A stretch of DNA of 64,000 nt from an uncultured Candidatus Saccharibacteria bacterium. Its GTDB lineage: Bacteria; Patescibacteriota; Minisyncoccia; Phycocordibacterales; Phycocordibacteraceae. The notes below the pieces were generated by a model, which made no database searches, was not told the origin of the DNA, and saw only the letters and a list, made by a program, of their open reading frames with translations. How positions within the stretch are numbered: the first letter of the stretch is position 1; every line of letters starts with the position of its first letter. Below are positions 4,684 through 55,890 of this stretch, one piece after another. The position numbers and the translations under genes were made by a program. The stretch covers positions 83,434-147,433 of the forward strand of contig CAZSKX010000001.1 in NCBI GenBank assembly GCA_964607655.1. Reading direction: 5' to 3'.

Positions 4684-4742
4684 ATTAAAAAACCGCCCCT
4701 CTGCCGCGAGGTGAAGGGGTTTCCTTCACCTCGCGGGGGCGG
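4684..4742 (-). terminator. Intrinsic terminator module A, read on the minus strand as hairpin + GGCGGTTTTTTAAT. Shares a 29-nt identical core with module B.
   Basis: 14-bp stem CCGCGAGGTGAAGG/CCTTCACCTCGCGG plus an outer CCGCCCC/GGGGCGG stem. T6 run on the minus strand immediately 3' of gene 4747-5349. Confidence 0.7.
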
Positions 4743-5444: not shown

Positions 5445-5501
5445 CATTAAAAAACCGCCCCTCTGCCGCGAGGTTGGAAGATTTTTCATCTTCCAACCTC
5501 G
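5445..5501 (-). terminator. Intrinsic terminator module B. Same 29-nt core as module A but a different 15-bp stem.
   Basis: Stem GCGAGGTTGGAAGAT/ATCTTCCAACCTCGC with loop TTTTC. Lies 3' of the minus-strand gene ending at 5526, followed on the minus strand by GGCGGTTTTTTAAT. Confidence 0.7.
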
Positions 5502-5525
5502 CCGAGGTAGTGGTTATGTCGGCTC

Positions 5526-13679: not shown

Positions 13680-13702
13680 AGAATCCAATTCTTTAAATCA
13701 AA

Positions 13703-13727
13703 AACGCCCCGGCCGGGGCGTTTTTGA
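13703..13727 (+). terminator. Rho-independent terminator after the major pilin gene.
   Basis: CGCCCCGGCCGGGGCG followed by TTTTTGATTTT. Confidence 0.8.
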
Positions 13728-13852
13728 TTTTCATAAACTTCATCCACGCTTCAGTACACAAAGACTTTAATTAAGAAGCTCCTGACGTGGCGCAGCTCTA
13801 CGAGCTGGGCGAGGGTCATTAGCATTTTATTCGATCTTAAATTCTTATTATT

Positions 13853-15502: not shown

Positions 15503-15532
15503 TTCTTTCACAACACGCCCATAGTGCGCCAG

Positions 15533-15561
15533 TCCACGCCGCCCTCACGGGCGGCGTGGAC
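15533..15561. terminator. Bidirectional terminator hairpin between convergent genes.
   Basis: GTCCACGCCGCCC-TCAC-GGGCGGCGTGGAC, 13-bp perfect stem. Confidence 0.6.
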
Positions 15562-19004: not shown

Positions 19005-19451
19005 TCATGACAGAATGACCTCCATAACGACTGGCCCGACGCCAGGTCCGGTTAGGCCGCACTTCTTAGCGGCTGCGAATGAGAAGTCGAGGACTCGTCC
19101 CTCGATGAAGGGACCTCGGTCGGAGACTTCGAGGTTGAAGTACGTGCCCGTGAGAGGGCAGTACACCCGAAGCTCGGTTCCGAGCGGCAGGCTCTTGTGC
19201 GCGACGATCGTCTCGTCGTACATGTCGAATTCCTCGCCGTTGGCCATTTCTAGCCCGTGGAACTGATCTGCATAGTAACTTGCGTAGACTACCCACAGCT
19301 GGGCATCAAGGCAGGTTTTTTCTGCGTAGACCAGAGGCACGGTCTCTGCCGCCGGGCAGACGTCACTGTTGATCCAGCAAACGCCCTGCGCAGCGGCGAT
19401 GGTAGGCATGAGCCCTGAGAGCATGAATAGAAAGAGCAAAATACGAAGCAC
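19005..19451 (-). CDS. RlpA-like double-psi beta-barrel (DPBB) domain lipoprotein/secreted protein.
   Basis: Signal peptide. DPBB signature YASYYADQFHGLEMANGEEFDMYDETIVAHKSLPLGTELRV...VSDRGPF. Confidence 0.7.
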   Translation of the reverse strand: MLRILLFLFMLSGLMPTIAAAQGVCWINSDVCPAAETVPLVYAEKTCLDAQLWVVYASYYADQFHGLEMANGEEFDMYDETIVAHKSLPLGTELRVYCPLTGTYFNLEVSDRGPFIEGRVLDFSFAAAKKCGLTGPGVGPVVMEVILS

Positions 19452-19765
19452 GAAAGAACCTCCTTGTGTTTGGTAAGCCTTGCCGATATGGCCGCGCTTA
19501 CTCTGGTACTTCTACCGTACCATATATTAAGTAGACGTGAAGAGTCAGATTTTCTTACAGAAAAGAAAATGGGTGCAGTCGCTTTCGCAACTGCACCCAC
19601 GGCTCTTTTCGTTCAGGGTAAGCCTAACCCCGCTAGTATGTTCACCTCAATCGTTTGCCTCCTTTTCGGCGCCGTATTGGCACTCCGGTCGTCTGGACCG
19701 GGGTTGTCGTGGATAGACATTGCAGAGATGGACGGTTCAGGCCGAACCGTCCGGGACGGGGCTCG

Positions 19766-20319
19766 TTACCCGAGCACCTCGACGAGCTCGCTGAGGATCG
19801 CGTCAGACGCGTCATCCGGACGAGCCCACACGAAGGCCTCGTTGAGCCTGGACAGCATCATGTCCAGGGAGTCGCGGTCGCCCTTCCCGCGCATCGCGGG
19901 GCGGCGCCACGCGACGAGCTGGAAGAGTCCCTGGACCGTGTCCTTGGTGAAGGTGACCTTGCGGCCCTTCACCGTGAGCTGCTGCTCGAGGATCGAGGAG
20001 AGCCGCGCCCAGAGGTCCTTCCCGGCGAGTTCTCGTGCGCGAGGCACGAGAACTCGCCGGGAAGGGCCATCATCAGCGGGAACACCGTGAGCAGGTGTTC
20101 CTTCGACTCCGCCGCGAAGCGGTTGCGCTCCGCGAGCGTGCGGTCGGGGCTCGGCGCCGCCGGGGCGGGGGCCTTCTGCCGGGAGGTCTTCTCCTGGCGG
20201 CTGACGCTCTCCTCGCGGTGGCTGTCGCGGCCCTTCTTCTGGTCGCGGCCCGGCTTCTCGTTGCGGTTCTGGTTGCGGTCGTTCTTCTGGTTCCTCGCCA
20301 TTGGGTTTCTCCTGCCCAT
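19766..20319 (-). pseudogene. Frameshifted gene with extreme GC3 codon usage. The N-terminal basic segment (frame of ORF 19969..20319) and the C-terminal segment (frame of ORF 19766..20380) join at a 22-bp perfect palindrome.
   Basis: Both halves show strong third-position G/C periodicity in different frames. Inverted repeat CCTTCCCGGCGAGTTCTCGTGC-GCGAG-GCACGAGAACTCGCCGGGAAGG at about 20019-20067. An arm length of 22 gives a +1 shift. Confidence 0.35.
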
Positions 20320-20499
20320 TTAAGGGCTCTGCGGACGTTTTGGCCCAGATCGGGATGATCGGGGTATCTGGGGAGATCATAGCACGAAGCTATAAATCTG
20401 TCAAGCACATGCTTGAAATATCTAGAAAATATGCTATATTTTTGAAAAAAAGAAGAGGGCGCGGCTGAGTATCAGCCGCGCCCGTTTTTGGCCCCTGGA

Positions 20500-21141
20500 T
20501 TAGGGCATCATTCCTTTCTCGATAAACGCTCTCTGCACGCCCGTGAGGGAGGGAGGCGTGGCGGTCGCCTGGTACTTCTCCCAGACGGGTTCCCAGTCGT
20601 CGCGGAAGACCTCGAAGAGCACTTCGTCGACGTAGGCTCCCTCGTGCAGGTGATGCTGCTTATAGCGACCCGCCGGTTTATAACCGCACTTCAAGAGGTG
20701 GCCGGCGCTCTGAGCATTGAATGCCTTCACGGTCGAGGTCAGCTTGCGCAGGCCGAGCACCATGAATGCGTGGTAGAGCAGGAGCAGCTTCGCCTCCGTG
20801 CCCAGTCCTCGGCCCTGTGCGCCCTCCGCGCCGATCATCGATCCGGTCGTTGCGAAGCCGTGCGGCCACGTAACGCCGTGGATCCCCATGTGCCCGACGT
20901 ACTGGTACGAGGTGCCGGCGCGCAGCAGCACTGCAAACACCTCCTTCTCGCCCTTGCTCTTGTCGAGCCCGCGGACCCACTCGACGCCACCAGCGTACGA
21001 GTAGGGAGGGCGCTGCAGAGTCCCTTCGACGCCGATGCGTCGATTGATCCACGGCAGAAAGAGTTTTACATATCCGGGGTGCATGAGCCCCAAGGCTACC
21101 TGCACCTTACCCTCATACGACACAGTATGACCATGTTTCAT
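20500..21141 (-). CDS. GNAT-family N-acetyltransferase (RimL/RimJ-like).
   Basis: Acetyl-CoA-binding motif region AEGAQGRGLGTEAKLLLLYHAF, typical GNAT fold length. Confidence 0.7.
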   Translation of the reverse strand: MKHGHTVSYEGKVQVALGLMHPGYVKLFLPWINRRIGVEGTLQRPPYSYAGGVEWVRGLDKSKGEKEVFAVLLRAGTSYQYVGHMGIHGVTWPHGFATTGSMIGAEGAQGRGLGTEAKLLLLYHAFMVLGLRKLTSTVKAFNAQSAGHLLKCGYKPAGRYKQHHLHEGAYVDEVLFEVFRDDWEPVWEKYQATATPPSLTGVQRAFIEKGMMP

Positions 21142-21170: not shown

Positions 21171-21220
21171 GCTCCAGAAAACGAGAAATGCCTCGGCTCC
21201 CGCAGAGCCGAGGCATTTCT
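21171..21220 (-). terminator. Minus-strand hairpin + T-tract just upstream of the GNAT gene and downstream of a 24-codon ORF. Terminator or attenuator.
   Basis: AGAAATGCCTCGGCTC-CCGCAG-AGCCGAGGCATTTCT then CGTTTTCTGG on the minus strand. Confidence 0.5.
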
Positions 21221-30900: not shown

Positions 30901-30940
30901 GTACTAGAAACACCCGCGGCTCCGAAGGAGCCGCGGGTGT

Positions 30941-32329
30941 TTGCTATACTGGGTGCATTATATGGCTTCGCTCTTTGAAAGCGTCGACAAGAAAGTTGAA
31001 AAGCTGAGTGACAATTTCAGCATTAAGTTTGAAGCACGGCCGGTGTTCGTGGCGGTGCTGGTGGTCATCCTCGCGTTGAGCATGGTGTTCCCGGAGGTGG
31101 CTTCAGTCGCCATCAAGGGAGCGCTTTTCCTTGCGCCGGTATGGCTTCCTTTTCTTGTAGTCGGAGGAGCGATCGAGATGTGGTACATCCTTAAACAATC
31201 CGAATTTCTTTCCAATCAGAAATATATCCTGCTTGAGATTAAGCCTCCGCGTGAGCTCGTGAAGACGCCGCTCGCGATGGAGGCATTTATCTCGACGCTG
31301 CACCTTACCGGAGGCGAGAGTAACTGGTGGCAGAGGATTACGGGCGGCCTGCGCCCACACTGGTCGCTCGAGATAGTCTCCTTTGAAGGACAAGTACACT
31401 TCTTTATCTGGGGCAGGGCAAACTTCCGTCGACTGGTGGAAAGCCAGCTCTATGCGCAGTACCCTGGAACTCAAGTGGTAGAGGCGATCGATTATACGCG
31501 GACGATCTCAGCAACACCGGAAGAATGGTTTGTCTGGGGCGTTGATTTCAAAGCCCTCGATGCCGATCCCTTACCGATCAAAACGTACGTCGAGTACGGG
31601 CTCGAGAAGACTCAGAAAGAGCCCGAGCAGATCGACCCGCTTGCGAACCTCATCGAGTTTATGGGCTCGATCGGGAAAGGAGAGTATCTCTGGCTGCAGT
31701 ACGTTATCCGTGCTCACAAAGGGGAAAAGTATCATAAGCTCAACAAAGAAGGTAAGCCTTTTACCTGGGCTGACGAAGGGAAGGAGTTGATAGAAAAAAT
31801 TCGTGCTAAAACGCGCGATCCGTATCTCGATCCGGCGACGGGAGAGGAGCGGCCCGGCTTCCCGAACCCTACTAAAGGACAGTCTGAGAAAATTGCTGCG
31901 ATTGAACGTAACACAGGAAAACTCGCGTTCGACGTCGGGATTCGTGCGGTGTACATCACCAAGCACGACAAAGTGAACGGAGGTACGATCACCCACCTGA
32001 TTGCTCTCTTTAAACCCTTCACCAATACCGGCTGGAACGGTCTCGACTCCACAGGATGGCTAAAAAACTTTAACGATTACCCGTGGGATGCCTTTTGGAC
32101 GAACCGAAAGAAGGAGCACTATCGGCGGGAGCTTGTCGAGGCGTATCGCCGACGTCAGTACTTCTACCACCCTCGCTTCGAAGGGGCGCTAAAAGCAAGT
32201 AAGACTATGGTGATGAGTACGGAGGAGCTCGCAACGATATATCACATCCCGTCACGCTCGGTCGAGACGCCAGGACTCGGTCGTATCGCCTCGACGACAA
32301 GCGAAGCACCGGTTAATCTTCCTATATAA
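30941..32329 (+). CDS. Hypothetical membrane-anchored protein (462 aa).
   Basis: Long intact ORF with two N-terminal TM helices, immediately downstream of the HTH protein. No recognisable domain. Confidence 0.45.
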   Translation: MLYWVHYMASLFESVDKKVEKLSDNFSIKFEARPVFVAVLVVILALSMVFPEVASVAIKGALFLAPVWLPFLVVGGAIEMWYILKQSEFLSNQKYILLEIKPPRELVKTPLAMEAFISTLHLTGGESNWWQRITGGLRPHWSLEIVSFEGQVHFFIWGRANFRRLVESQLYAQYPGTQVVEAIDYTRTISATPEEWFVWGVDFKALDADPLPIKTYVEYGLEKTQKEPEQIDPLANLIEFMGSIGKGEYLWLQYVIRAHKGEKYHKLNKEGKPFTWADEGKELIEKIRAKTRDPYLDPATGEERPGFPNPTKGQSEKIAAIERNTGKLAFDVGIRAVYITKHDKVNGGTITHLIALFKPFTNTGWNGLDSTGWLKNFNDYPWDAFWTNRKKEHYRRELVEAYRRRQYFYHPRFEGALKASKTMVMSTEELATIYHIPSRSVETPGLGRIASTTSEAPVNLPI

Positions 32330-53476: not shown

Positions 53477-53560
53477 GGTACACAGTAAGTTCAGGGCCAG
53501 GCGTTTGTGGAGCCGGGTACCTATTTGACAACTACCACAGAACAGAAGGGAACCAAGAAG

Positions 53561-53905
53561 ATGAAAGAAATCTCTGCGGCTGTTGGCATCCTCGTGGGAG
53601 TGTTCGCCCTCGTCTGGGCGATCCAAGGCAACGATTTCTTCATGTACAAGGTGTTCGCACCGAAGTACGAAGAGGCGCGTCGCGAGGTCTTCGAGAACAC
53701 GAAGTCCTACAACGACGGCATGAAGCAGGAGCTCGAGAACATGCGTTTCGACTACGAGCAGGCCTCGCCCGAAAGCAAGGCGGCGCTCGCGTCGATCATC
53801 CTGCACCGCGTCGCCGGCTACGGAGAGGACAAGCTCTCGCTGGAGATGCAGAACTTCGTCAACAAGCTTCGCGCTCAGCAGAGCAGCAACAACTTCGCGC
53901 ACTGA
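53561..53905 (+). CDS. Small membrane-anchored hypothetical protein.
   Basis: RBS-like GAAGGGAACCAAGAAG upstream. N-terminal TM helix ISAAVGILVGVFALVWAI. Confidence 0.45.
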   Translation: MKEISAAVGILVGVFALVWAIQGNDFFMYKVFAPKYEEARREVFENTKSYNDGMKQELENMRFDYEQASPESKAALASIILHRVAGYGEDKLSLEMQNFVNKLRAQQSSNNFAH

Positions 53906-53930: not shown

Positions 53931-54458
53931 ATGAACCTGAAGAAGTGTCTCGTCGTACTGGGCGTCCTCGTGGCGCTCGGCGGATGCGGTCCTCTGCCGG
54001 AATCGTCGGATCAGAAGCAGCGTCGCGAGCAGGAAACGATCCTGCAGGAAGCGACCGCGCAGACGGGGATGCCGGCCATCAAGAACTTCCGCGAGCGGAA
54101 GATCCTGAAGGACATCATCGAGCTGCGCGACCAGGAAGGCCTGGTGACCTTCACCTACCTCTACAACGAGATGACGGGCAAGCTCGTCTTCCTCGGTGAG
54201 AGCGTGGGATACGGGATCCCGTACGCGACGCAGTACACGAATCCCGAGAAGGTGATCTACCACGATCTCGCGATTCCGCAGGCGGATCCGAACGGGCTCT
54301 TCTCACCGGCGTCCGCAGATGGGACCTGGGTCCTCCTGAAAAACCCGAATGGCAACGACGTGAGGCCGGTGTTCATCGAGCCTCGCATCATCGTTTCGCC
54401 GTTCAAGCTGAACGCCGAAGGTAGCCCGGTCACCTCGACCGGTAAGCCGACGTCGTAA
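53931..54458 (+). CDS. Lipoprotein, unknown function.
   Basis: Lipobox LVALGG|C after a signal peptide. RBS AAGGAGA upstream. Terminator 54475-54527 downstream. Confidence 0.55.
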   Translation: MNLKKCLVVLGVLVALGGCGPLPESSDQKQRREQETILQEATAQTGMPAIKNFRERKILKDIIELRDQEGLVTFTYLYNEMTGKLVFLGESVGYGIPYATQYTNPEKVIYHDLAIPQADPNGLFSPASADGTWVLLKNPNGNDVRPVFIEPRIIVSPFKLNAEGSPVTSTGKPTS

Positions 54459-55219: not shown

Positions 55220-55828
55220 TTGGCAACGAAACTCGAAATGATCTCTTCCCGCAAGGGATTCTGGCATTCGCTCTTCTGGTCGCTCGTCTGGCTCGCGGTG
55301 CTCGGCGCCATTGCGTTCACTCTGTACGGGTGGGCGCAGGCCCAGCTGTGTCCGGACGATGGCTGGCGGAGCTGGCGTGGGTACTGCTCCTACGACGGCG
55401 AGGACGCCTACTGGTTGTACATGTTCCTGACCTGCGTGATGTCCGGCGTCATGGGCCTCATCGTGGTCGGTACCATCTGGGGCCTCGTCTACGGCTTCGG
55501 CGACACGCTTGCCTTCGAGATGGGCGAGAACGGTGTCTGGCACAAGGCCACGAAGAAGGGATACAGCTTCCCGGCCGGCGCCTACGCCATCGAGACTCTG
55601 TTCAACCGCGTTCTTCGGGTCGAGGTCGATCAGTCGACGATCAATCGTCTCTTCGATGTGGGCACGGTCCGTGTCCACGTGGTGACGTTCGTCAACGCCG
55701 AGATCGAGGAGCATGCCTTCTGCCTTTCGTCGGTGCTCCATCCCAACGAGCTGGCAGCAGCGATCATGTGGCACGCTGGCAAGCACGAAGGGATGGATCT
55801 CCGCATCGAAGACAAGCCCAGGGCCTAG
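55220..55828 (+). CDS. Membrane protein with a bacterial PH (bPH_2/DUF304-like) domain, inserted between grpE and dnaK.
   Basis: Three or four TM helices, then ETLFNRVLRVEVDQSTINRLFDVGTVRVHVV resembling bPH_2. Own terminator at 55851-55890. Confidence 0.5.
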   Translation: MATKLEMISSRKGFWHSLFWSLVWLAVLGAIAFTLYGWAQAQLCPDDGWRSWRGYCSYDGEDAYWLYMFLTCVMSGVMGLIVVGTIWGLVYGFGDTLAFEMGENGVWHKATKKGYSFPAGAYAIETLFNRVLRVEVDQSTINRLFDVGTVRVHVVTFVNAEIEEHAFCLSSVLHPNELAAAIMWHAGKHEGMDLRIEDKPRA

Positions 55829-55850
55829 GAAGCCTTGAACGGCCCCAACC

Positions 55851-55890
55851 GGGCCCGCGTACCTCACAGGTACGCGGGCCCGTTCTCTTT
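55851..55890 (+). terminator. Rho-independent terminator.
   Basis: GGGCCCGCGTACC-TCACA-GGTACGCGGGCCC followed by GTTCTCTTTT. Confidence 0.75.

What the first reader, a model, noticed from the sequence alone, without database searches (positions are those of the whole stretch)
19640..20340. GC3-extreme island with a 22-bp perfect palindrome that frameshifts its only gene
Over about 700 bp the GC content jumps well above the neighbourhood. The coding signal is of the actinobacterial type, with nearly every third position G/C. This is best seen in the minus-strand segments MARNQKNDRNQNRNEKPGRDQKK... and ...LAGKDLWARLSSILEQQLTVKGRKVTFTKD.... The two segments lie in different frames. They join at the inverted repeat CCTTCCCGGCGAGTTCTCGTGC-GCGAG-GCACGAGAACTCGCCGGGAAGG at about 20019-20067. 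An arm length of 22 gives a +1 shift, and the peptide PGEFSC then appears in several frames. The possibilities are a recent horizontal acquisition later disrupted by a foldback duplication, a contaminating or chimeric sequence, or an assembly foldback artifact. If real, the hairpin could also work as programmed frameshift/regulatory RNA, but that is less likely.
Basis: partly seen in the sequence, partly recalled or inferred. Interest (0 to 1): 0.55.

Follow-up and report, generated by a model that had tools for sequence, protein, structure and literature searches.

The report
Template-switch hairpin frameshifts a GC3-extreme gene

Summary
A perfect 22-nt inverted repeat (20017-20038 / 20044-20065, 5-nt loop) lies inside a minus-strand gene (start 20301, stop 19766). 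The gene's GC3 is 0.93-0.99, against 0.64 +/- 0.07 for the window, and its two halves are in different frames.

The interpretation needs correcting.

- **Not a recent import.** Intact single-frame orthologs (163-166 aa) sit in the same slot next to an RlpA-like DPBB gene in four related metagenomic contigs. A distant 144-aa homolog occupies the slot in two more. All of them are equally GC3-extreme (0.89-0.96) in about 56% GC genomes.
- **Nothing was inserted.** The palindrome is colinear with the orthologs. The promoter-proximal arm has the ortholog length and frame. The other arm is 2 nt too long and matches the first arm's complement exactly. In the closest relative the same two segments (22 and 20 nt) already form an imperfect palindrome.

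This is the signature of a quasipalindrome template-switch mutation, giving a net +2 nt. The product is truncated to 110 aa and loses the helical C-terminal domain.

Whether the switch happened in the cell or during amplification or assembly cannot be settled without reads. Programmed frameshifting is not supported.

Side observations: the gene has a near-consensus promoter and conserved structured 5' and 3' untranslated regions. Its dN/dS is 0.6-0.9, and its dS is lower than that of its neighbours.

The parts
20376..20404 (-). The gene's own sigma70-type promoter, TTGACA-17 nt-TATGAT, with TG before the -10
   Evidence: 11 of 12 matches. It is conserved in the four loci that extend that far; homology with L001 and L003 begins at the -35 box.
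20302..20369 (-). Conserved 5' untranslated leader: hairpin ACCCC..GGGG of variable length, hairpin GCCC-UUAnnU-GGGC, and a CC.CC stretch predicted to pair with the Shine-Dalgarno GGAG
   Evidence: 16 predicted pairs, 4 with compensatory changes among 5 sequences. A covariance model finds it only upstream of this gene. No Rfam match. The transcription start is inferred, not shown.
20026..20301 (-). Gene part 1, native frame: ATG at 20301, a disordered basic tail, then ...FPLMMALPGEFSCLAHENS. This frame runs on to a premature stop at 19969-19971, giving a 110-aa product.
   Evidence: (GC3 0.987). The AGGAG ribosome-binding site 8 nt upstream of the ATG is read directly from the sequence.
20044..20065 (-). 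Arm A, the 5' arm on the coding strand (CCTTCCCGGCGAGTTCTCGTGC, encoding LPGEFSC). It has the ancestral length and frame and is the inferred template of the switch.
   Evidence: There are 9 codons between the conserved ATG and CTCGCG, as in L001 and L004. G and F are shared with P0003/P0004, and EF with the distant homolog's LPKEF.
20039..20043 (-). 5-nt loop (CTCGC on the coding strand), part of the conserved Leu-Ala codons CTC GCG
20017..20038 (-). Arm B, the 3' arm on the coding strand (GCACGAGAACTCGCCGGGAAGG). It is the overwritten segment and carries the net +2 nt; one placement of the extra bases is 20024-20025.
   Evidence: There are 14 nt between CTCGCG and GGGAAG, against 12 nt in all four orthologs. 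It is an exact complement of arm A. The homologous L001 segment is 20 nt and pairs with its own arm A at 13 positions with a 2-nt gap.
19766..20023 (-). Gene part 2, shifted frame: GKDLWARLSS...ELVEVLG and stop. It encodes the helical C-terminal domain, which is no longer translated from the native start.
   Evidence: GC3 0.928; helical bundle, pLDDT about 77-94 per 10-residue block in the ortholog model.
19569..19765 (-). Conserved structured 3' region: hairpin 19730-19752 just after the stop, further conserved hairpins, and an intrinsic terminator at 19569-19600 (14-bp stem plus T run)
   Evidence: 41 predicted pairs, 8 with compensatory changes. No Rfam match.
19005..19451 (-). Downstream neighbour: RlpA-like DPBB_1 lytic transglycosylase, the conserved partner of the slot
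   Evidence: PF03330, E 3e-12; for synteny
20500..21141 (-). Upstream neighbour: GNAT acetyltransferase (91% identical to that of L001), with its terminator at 20457-20483

Best explanation
The gene is a native, lineage-restricted small gene (about 165-177 codons). It has its own promoter, a structured leader and a terminator, and it encodes a disordered basic N-terminal tail plus a helical C-terminal domain of unknown function. Extreme G/C use at third codon positions is an inherited property of the whole family.

In this genome the gene was inactivated by a quasipalindrome template-switch mutation. The ancestral coding sequence (...LP.E[FL]..LA.E..GK...) already contained two partly complementary segments of unequal length, about 22 and 20 nt. 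During DNA synthesis the nascent strand, having copied arm A and the loop, folded back (or jumped to the opposite template) and copied arm A in reverse complement as far as ...GGGAAGG. It then returned to the correct template at the AAGG microhomology.

This replaced the about 20-nt ancestral arm B with a 22-nt exact complement of arm A. The result is a perfect 22-bp hairpin and a +2 frameshift. Translation from the native start now ends at 19969-19971 (110 aa) and the C-terminal domain is lost. The very stable mRNA hairpin would in addition hinder ribosomes.

Shown: the palindrome, the frames, the colinearity, the location of the +2 nt, the ortholog quasipalindrome, and GC3 as a family trait. 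Inferred: the switch mechanism, its polarity, that it happened in vivo, and that it is recent.
For: - Perfect 22/22 arms, unique in the window and far beyond chance.
- Four orthologs are intact in one frame. Removing 2 nt from arm B restores a full 177-codon reading frame aligned end to end with them, and there is no other lesion.
- The flanks and both arms are colinear with the orthologs. Arm A has the ortholog length. Arm B has 14 nt where all four orthologs have 12.
- In L001 the homologous segments are 22 and 20 nt and form a quasipalindrome: 13 complementary positions plus a 2-nt gap, in the top 4.3% of positions in that gene. L001 comes from a close relative (GNAT 91%, YchF 96% amino-acid identity). 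Copying arm A predicts exactly +2.
- Arm A residues are shared with other family members: G and F with P0003/P0004, and EF with the LPKEF of the distant homolog.
- Both halves still have GC3 of 0.93-0.99 and there are no further stops or indels, so the lesion is young.
- The mechanism is established. Imperfect inverted repeats are converted to perfect ones, with clustered substitutions and indels, through a switch to the nascent or opposite strand and back (PMC7202029; PMC5453318).
Against: - No reads are available and no second assembly of this lineage was found, so an in vitro or assembly origin is untested.
- The nearest ortholog is only 65% identical in protein and 73.5% in DNA. The ancestral arm B is therefore not known exactly, and the local excess of differences in arm B is not itself significant (my hand count on the alignment: 9 of 22 positions against about 6 of 22 in the next 22 nt).
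- The quasipalindrome signal is modest in L001 (p about 0.04) and absent in the other three orthologs.
- The single T-ending codon of the N part (CTT, Leu) lies in arm A and is the complement of AAG in arm B. Some copying in the opposite direction at the outer end therefore cannot be excluded.
Confidence: 0.62

Rival explanations
1. The same switch-and-return copying happened outside the cell, during whole-genome amplification, PCR or library preparation, or was introduced by assembly or polishing. In that case the organism's real gene is intact.
For: Strand-displacing polymerases are known, from general knowledge, to make inverted chimeras at microhomologies. The window comes from a single NCBI assembly with no independent copy on record. 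The gene is otherwise undecayed, which fits a lesion that never existed in vivo.
Against: Foldback chimeras normally continue in inverted orientation or end contigs. Here only 22 nt are rewritten, and the sequence returns to the correct template in the middle of a 464-kb contig, with colinear flanks. A random chimera should not win the consensus at normal coverage. The event sits exactly where a close relative has a natural quasipalindrome with the matching 2-nt length asymmetry, as expected for replication-associated switching.
Confidence: 0.23
2. The hairpin is functional. It would be a programmed -1 frameshift stimulator, or a regulatory or phase-variable element, and the full-length protein would still be made.
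For: The shift needed to rejoin the frames is -1, the common direction for programmed frameshifting. The stem is extremely stable (-51.5 kcal/mol as RNA).
Against: There is no X XXY YYZ slippery heptamer upstream of or within the element (sequence read). Homology shows that the native frame persists through arm A and the loop, and the change lies inside or at the end of the 3' arm, so the structure would be behind the ribosome rather than ahead of it. All four long orthologs and three short homologs are single-frame and lack the palindrome.
Confidence: 0.03
3. One reading: a recently acquired foreign (high-GC, actinobacterial-type) island that was later disrupted by a foldback duplication.
For: GC3 is more than 4 sd above the window's genes. 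The slot shows gene turnover among relatives: a MOSC gene instead of this gene in L085/L086, an extra gene in L001, no GNAT in L003. The target and the DPBB gene are far more diverged from L001 than the adjacent core genes are.
Against: - All seven copies examined have GC3 of 0.89-0.96 in hosts of 0.55-0.57 GC, down to 22% protein identity. Four-fold sites are near saturation between copies, with 62-71% the same third base where about 50% is expected. The bias is therefore maintained, not left over from a transfer.
- The promoter and leader are conserved with the gene.
- No homolog exists in any other lineage.
- Two-fold codon preferences run in the same direction as in the host's DnaK, S9 and GrpE.
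- Nothing was duplicated or inserted at the palindrome.
Confidence: 0.05

Closest known systems
Quasipalindrome-associated template-switch mutations (Ripley 1982 model; E. coli thyA hotspot and lacZ QP5/QP6 reporters; PMC7202029)
   Same: An imperfect inverted repeat inside a gene becomes perfect by copying one arm from the other. The change combines substitutions and an indel and shifts the reading frame. The spacer is short (5 nt) and the arms are about 20 nt, comparable with the 18-bp quasipalindrome of the reporters.
   Different: It is seen here as a fixed or consensus state in an environmental genome, not as a selected laboratory mutant. The ancestor is inferred from a 65%-identical ortholog, not observed. 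The inferred ancestral repeat was only about 60% complementary, so more was rewritten than in the classic hotspots.
Four-point template-switch events in comparative genomics (Loytynoja and Goldman 2017, PMC5453318; RNA hairpins, PMC8794818; yeast coding genes, PMC8604942)
   Same: A cluster of apparent substitutions plus an indel is explained by one reverse-complement copy of adjacent sequence, followed by return to the original template. The event creates a long perfect stem in one step.
   Different: Those studies use closely related genome pairs, so each event can be polarised. Here the outgroups are too distant for a formal four-point test. The outcome is gene inactivation, not a new RNA hairpin or protein innovation.
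Inverted chimeras from multiple displacement amplification, and foldback artefacts of assembly
   Same: Reverse-complement joining at short microhomology, which gives a hairpin-like junction.
   Different: Artefacts usually involve a single switch, so the sequence continues inverted, with intervening deletions or contig ends. Here there is a switch and a return, with only 22 nt affected.
Programmed -1 ribosomal frameshift signals (for example dnaX and IS elements)
   Same: Two overlapping frames with a strong stem-loop at the junction, and a -1 relation between the frames.
   Different: There is no slippery site, the structure is not downstream of the shift point, and the layout is not conserved in orthologs.

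Membership tests
Quasipalindrome template-switch mutation | The product is a perfect (or improved) inverted repeat with a short spacer | tested here: met
   22/22 complementary arms with a 5-nt spacer
Quasipalindrome template-switch mutation | The ancestral or outgroup sequence at the same site is an imperfect inverted repeat | tested here: inconclusive
   In L001, 13 positions are complementary with a 2-nt gap, in the top 4.3% of positions in that gene. L002, L003 and L004 are not above background. The outgroups are 50-65% identical in protein, so the true ancestor is unknown.
Quasipalindrome template-switch mutation | One arm keeps the ancestral state, and every difference in the other arm (substitutions and indel) is explained by reverse-complement copying | tested here: met
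   Arm A has the ortholog length and frame. Arm B carries the +2 nt (14 against 12 nt in all four orthologs) and equals the reverse complement of arm A exactly.
Quasipalindrome template-switch mutation | Flanks remain colinear (switch and return), with microhomology at the switch points | tested here: met
   The alignment is colinear on both sides. GC/GCGC at the loop side and AAGG at the return point are shared by the window and L001; this is read from the alignment.
Quasipalindrome template-switch mutation | The event arose during DNA replication or repair in the cell | not testable with these tools
   There are no reads and no second assembly of the lineage.
Amplification or assembly foldback chimera | A long inverted duplication, or sequence that continues in inverted orientation beyond the junction, often at a contig end | tested here: not met
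   The inverted repeat is limited to 22-25 nt. Both flanks continue colinear with the orthologs, inside a 464,554-bp contig.
Amplification or assembly foldback chimera | Supported only by chimeric reads, or accompanied by a coverage anomaly | not testable with these tools
   No read data are available.
Programmed -1 ribosomal frameshift site | A slippery heptamer X XXY YYZ 5-9 nt upstream of the stimulatory structure | tested here: not met
   The coding strand upstream of the stem reads GTG TTC CCG CTG ATG ATG GCC, with no heptamer. The frame change maps within the 3' arm.
Programmed -1 ribosomal frameshift site | The two-frame architecture is conserved in orthologs | tested here: not met
   P0001, P0003, P0004 and P0005 are single open frames with no stem longer than 8 bp.
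Recently acquired genomic island | Composition atypical for the host | tested here: met
   GC3 of 0.93-0.99 against 0.642 +/- 0.074
Recently acquired genomic island | Absent from the same position in related genomes, or a donor-like homolog elsewhere, or mobility genes, tRNA or direct repeats at the borders | tested here: not met
   The gene is present in the same slot in L001-L003, and a distant homolog in L087 and L089, each with the same GC3. There are no homologs outside the family, no tRNA and no flanking direct repeats of note. The slot does show turnover (MOSC gene in L085/L086).
Intrinsic terminator or repeated palindromic element | A stem followed by a T run, or multiple copies in the genome | tested here: not met
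   The stem is not called as a terminator, and the arm sequence is unique in the window.

The most novel reading that the evidence does not exclude
The palindrome may be incidental, and the unusual object may be the cassette it hit. That cassette is an orphan gene family confined to one uncultured lineage and always placed beside an RlpA-like gene. It has a consensus promoter, a leader predicted to sequester the Shine-Dalgarno sequence, and a structured 3' RNA region, all more conserved than the protein. Its third codon positions are held at about 90-99% G/C. Its dS is lower than that of its neighbours, while its dN/dS is 0.6-0.9. This pattern would fit selection acting mainly on the nucleic acid: a dual-function RNA/protein locus, an mRNA selected for extreme stability or structure, or a local hotspot of GC-biased gene conversion. 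The frameshifted copy would then be a natural knock-out of the protein part only.
Probability: 0.12. Interest if true: 0.6.

Novelty: new member of a known kind. Interest (0 to 1): 0.3.

Why it matters
- **A clean natural example of a known mutation type.** One replication template switch creates a 22-bp perfect hairpin and a frameshift inside a gene of an uncultured bacterium. This mechanism is well studied in E. coli, phage T4, yeast and primates but is rarely documented in environmental genomes.
- **Annotation.** The public 204-aa protein call (P0002) is an artefact. Only its last about 88 residues are genuine, and the first about 116 are an out-of-frame translation.
- **A caution about composition.** An extreme compositional island is not by itself evidence of horizontal transfer. 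Here the GC3 bias is a maintained property of a gene family.
- **An open question.** Why this family keeps 90-99% GC3 in about 56% GC genomes while its protein evolves fast is unexplained and testable.

Tried and rejected
- **Protein family and structure searches.** Pfam, NCBIfam, PHROGs and PDB sequence searches on both halves or the family profile found nothing. An AlphaFold model of the ortholog was searched with Foldseek against PDB; there was no match with E below 1.
- **Collection scans.** Scans of genome contigs and metagenome contigs with the family profile found no relative. An exact-pattern scan of metagenome contigs with the conserved 3' RNA motif gave 0 matches. A genome-contig scan with the DPBB profile returned only generic RlpA genes, none next to a family member.
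- **Independent copies of this lineage.** Exact look-ups of the window's own proteins (P0002, DPBB, GNAT) returned nothing on record.
- **Known RNAs.** Rfam at gathering and at permissive thresholds gave only sub-threshold chance hits; the hairpin resembles miRNA precursors trivially. No tRNA was found.
- **Repeated element.** The arm is unique in the window, so this was rejected.
- **GC3 explained by ordinary translational selection.** DnaK, S9 and GrpE share the preference for C/G in two-fold codons, but at four-fold sites they are 0.62 GC against 0.96 in the target. This explains the bias only in part.
- **Antisense ORF 19655-20323.** It is an automatic consequence of GC3 near 100%, because the codon-aligned antisense frame cannot contain stops. 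It was not pursued.
- **Removing whole units.** Deleting a whole arm (22 nt) or an arm plus the loop (27 nt) does not restore the frame. This is frame arithmetic done by hand on the sequence.

Full report
**1. The observation**

The sequence at 20017-20065 is CCTTCCCGGCGAGTTCTCGTGC-GCGAG-GCACGAGAACTCGCCGGGAAGG. It is a perfect 22-nt inverted repeat with a 5-nt spacer, extendable to 25 nt with one mismatch.
- The arm occurs nowhere else in the window, and no shuffle produced a match.
- The single strand folds at -32 kcal/mol as DNA (z = -8.7) and at -51.5 kcal/mol as RNA.
- It is the longest perfect stem in the 64 kb. By my reading of the crude ORF coordinates, the other stems of 13 bp or more lie between genes and look like terminators; one of them (5468-5502) overlaps a doubtful ORF.

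On the minus strand, an ORF starting MARNQKND... runs into the palindrome in one frame, and ...GKDLWARLSS...ELVEVLG leaves it in another.

GC3 is 0.987 and 0.928 in the two parts. Sixty-eight crude ORFs of the window average 0.642 +/- 0.074, with a maximum of 0.841. The region gives the highest phase-specific GC in the window.

**2. What the gene is**

No Pfam, NCBIfam, PHROG or PDB sequence match exists.

A search of 5.8 billion protein clusters with the joined protein found three intact relatives: P0001 (163 aa, 60% identity) and P0003/P0004 (166 aa, about 50%). It also found the window's own mis-called 204-aa ORF, P0002. A profile search of 1.84 billion representatives added only P0005.

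All relatives are single open frames. An AlphaFold model of P0001 gives a disordered basic N-terminal 55 residues and a confident helical bundle (pLDDT about 77-94 per 10-residue block). Foldseek found no PDB neighbour.

The gene is a separate transcription unit.
- Its promoter is TTGACA-17-TATGAT at 20404-20376.
- Its about 68-nt leader is conserved in all five loci.
- An AGGAG ribosome-binding site precedes the ATG at 20301.
- A conserved 3' region ends in an intrinsic terminator at 19600-19569.

**3. It is native, and the GC3 bias is a family trait**

In L001 the order is GNAT, one extra gene, the target, then the DPBB gene. In L002 and L003 the target is followed by the DPBB gene. The window has GNAT, target, DPBB.

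L001 comes from a close relative: GNAT is 91%, YchF 96% and the DUF5671 protein 92% identical, with 83-86% DNA identity.

Every ortholog is as GC3-extreme as the window's copy (0.886-0.957), while its neighbours are at 0.47-0.81.

A search with the DPBB neighbour found further contigs.
- In L087 and L089 the slot between YchF and the DPBB gene holds a 144-aa gene. This gene is a distant homolog of the C-terminal domain (hhalign probability 96.9%, E 2e-10, 22% identity).
- That gene also has GC3 of 0.924, against 0.63-0.75 around it.
- In L085 and L086, whose DPBB protein is 84% identical to the window's, a MOSC gene occupies the slot instead.

Between diverged copies, four-fold sites share the third base only 62-71% of the time, where about 50% is expected if only G or C is allowed. 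Synonymous sites have therefore turned over while staying G/C.

The bias is thus maintained by some continuing force and is not a remnant of a recent import. No homolog exists in Actinobacteria or anywhere else.

The cause is unexplained.
- The host's DnaK, S9 and GrpE lean the same way at two-fold codons (C 0.67 and G 0.83, against 0.56 and 0.68 in the background).
- They do not at four-fold sites (0.62 GC against 0.96 in the target).

**4. Anatomy of the lesion**

In the DNA alignment of the five genes the palindrome region is colinear with the orthologs.
- From the invariant ATG (Met) to the conserved CTCGCG (Leu-Ala), the window has 9 codons, as do L001 and L004. Arm A (CTT CCC GGC GAG TTC TCG TGC, encoding LPGEFSC) lies in this stretch, in frame.
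- From CTCGCG to the conserved GGN AAG GAC CTC TGG (GKDLW), all four orthologs have 12 nt and the window has 14. The +2 nt therefore lies in arm B.
- Deleting 2 nt there gives a 177-codon reading frame aligned end to end with the family, with no other defect.

Arm B is the exact reverse complement of arm A. Its interior has taken arm A's length (15 nt) in place of the ortholog length (13 nt).

In L001 the homologous segments are GCTCCCCGAGGAGCTCAAGCGC (22 nt) and GCGCGAGCAGAGCGGCAAGG (20 nt). They pair at 13 positions with a 2-nt gap, better than 95.7% of equally spaced segment pairs in that gene. This is partly because the Leu-Pro and Gly-Lys codons, and CTCGC/GCGAG, are natural complements.

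Arm A also shares residues with other family members: G and F with P0003/P0004, and EF with the LPKEF of the 144-aa homolog. This fits arm A being the unaltered arm.

**5. Mechanism**

The pattern has four elements:
- one arm is ancestral;
- the other arm is rewritten to perfect complementarity, with several substitutions and an indel;
- the flanks are untouched;
- short microhomologies lie at both ends (GC/GCGC next to the loop, AAGG at the return).

This is the classic quasipalindrome template-switch mutation. The nascent strand uses itself or the opposite strand as a transient template and then returns, which makes an imperfect inverted repeat perfect (PMC7202029; four-point model, PMC5453318).

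The consequences are as follows.
- There is a +2 frameshift, and translation from the native start stops at 19969-19971 (110 aa).
- The helical domain is lost.
- No start codon with a ribosome-binding site for the C-terminal part was noticed on reading the sequence.
- Both halves keep their extreme GC3 and there are no further lesions, so the event is recent or never existed in the cell.

**6. Rival explanations**

- **Artefact.** An in vitro or assembly origin with the same geometry cannot be excluded without reads. Foldback chimeras normally do not return to the template after 22 nt in the middle of a 464-kb contig, and the site coincides with a natural quasipalindrome that has the right length asymmetry. 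I give this about 0.23.
- **Programmed -1 frameshifting.** It fails its defining tests. There is no slippery heptamer, the frame change lies inside the 3' arm so the stem is not downstream of it, and the layout is not conserved.
- **Recent foreign island plus duplication.** It fails on synteny, on the family-wide GC3 and on colinearity. The slot does, however, show gene turnover and unusually high divergence relative to the adjacent core genes.

**7. Other things seen**

- **Substitution rates.** dN/dS of the target is 0.59-0.93 in all five pairs examined (window against L001: dN 0.283, dS 0.305). The values for GNAT, YchF and DUF5671 are 0.03-0.08. The target's dS is lower than that of those neighbours, 0.31 against 0.56-1.27.
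- **Untranslated regions.** The promoter, leader and 3' region are better conserved than the coding sequence. Predicted hairpins keep their pairing through compensatory changes: 4 of 16 pairs in the leader and 8 of 41 in the 3' region. Five sequences are too few to prove structure. A covariance model of the leader finds it only at this gene.
- **DPBB promoter.** The scan of 19400-20600 found no sigma70-like promoter on the DPBB gene's strand between the terminator and its start. That gene may therefore depend on read-through.
- **Organism.** It is not identified. The gene content (type IV pilus genes, DUF5671) and a 36% full-length DPBB match to a Patescibacteria MAG are only hints.

**8. Verdict**

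The finding is real but largely explained: a native orphan gene was disabled by a template-switch event that created the hairpin. It is a new natural instance of a known mutational mechanism, with an unresolved question of in vivo against in vitro origin. The more intriguing and still unexplained feature is the conserved extreme GC3 and the regulatory architecture of the gene family it hit.

Noticed in passing
window 20302-20404 (minus strand); L001 5783-5883, L002 40-147, L003 1558-1665, L004 1-83: The promoter (TTGACA-17-TATGAT) and an about 68-nt 5' leader are more conserved than the coding sequence. The consensus fold has a hairpin of variable length (ACCCC..GGGG), a hairpin GCCC-UUAnnU-GGGC, and a CC.CC stretch pairing with the Shine-Dalgarno GGAG. 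There is no Rfam match. A covariance model finds it only upstream of this gene family.
   Followed up: partly
window 19452-19765 (minus strand); alignments A7 and A8: The 3' region between the gene's stop and the DPBB start is highly conserved; between the window and L003 it is nearly identical. It holds a series of hairpins with compensatory changes, an extra inserted hairpin in L002 and L004, a terminator at 19569-19600, and then a conserved leader for the DPBB gene (CACGTCTAC invariant). No sigma70-like promoter for the DPBB gene was found. This is a possible attenuator or a new cis-regulatory RNA. There is no Rfam match, and an exact-pattern scan of metagenome contigs gave no hits.
   Followed up: partly
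window 19766-20301 compared with L001-L004: The gene family evolves fast at the protein level (dN/dS 0.59-0.93), yet its dS (0.31 against L001) is lower than that of the neighbouring GNAT, YchF and DUF5671 genes (0.56-1.27, with dN/dS 0.03-0.08). Synonymous sites appear more constrained than in core genes. Codon selection, RNA-level selection or GC-biased gene conversion were not distinguished.
   Followed up: partly
L085 1533-1994, L086 4116-4577, L087 3423-3857, L089 1946-2380, L001 4736-5701: The slot upstream of the RlpA-like DPBB gene turns over among close relatives. It holds the full-length family member in some, a 144-aa homolog without the basic tail in L087 and L089 (also GC3 0.92), and a MOSC-domain gene in L085 and L086. 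L001 has an extra 321-aa gene, and GNAT is absent in L003. Homology with L001 and L003 begins at the -35 box (window 20405/20406).
   Followed up: partly
window 20409-20441 (minus strand) and L002 1-33: A 33-nt AT-rich element (AAATATAGCATATTTTCTAGATATTTCAAGCAT) just upstream of the -35 box is identical in the window and L002. It is absent at that position in L001 and L003, although L003 is L002's close relative. It is single-copy in the window. It could be an operator or a recombination junction.
   Followed up: partly
window 19766-20380 (minus strand): The public protein call for this locus (P0002, 204 aa, NCBI) is a chimeric ORF. Its first about 116 residues are an out-of-frame reading of the leader and the N-terminal half, and only the last about 88 residues are genuine. 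The locus should be annotated as a frameshifted pseudogene.
   Followed up: yes
window about 20260-20279 (minus strand): There is an in-frame 12-nt insertion relative to all four orthologs in the basic tail (RNQNRNE). It looks like a tandem duplication, with ACCGCAAC repeated at a 12-nt spacing. A second in-frame insertion of about 13 codons (LAERN...EHLL) lies further downstream.
   Followed up: no
window 13695-13730, 30908-30942, 21184-21220, 55850-55882, 5468-5502, 4704-4736, 15532-15561: The window contains unusually long perfect-stem hairpins of 13-18 bp; the one at 13695-13730 is a 36-nt palindrome with no loop. By my reading of the crude ORF coordinates all but one lie between genes and are presumably terminators. 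They were not compared with each other or with relatives.
   Followed up: no
window 53507-53905, 53931-54458, 55220-55828: Three small membrane or lipoprotein-like genes around grpE-dnaK have the next-highest GC3 in the window (0.82-0.84). GrpE, DnaK and S9 themselves are ordinary (0.64-0.72).
   Followed up: no
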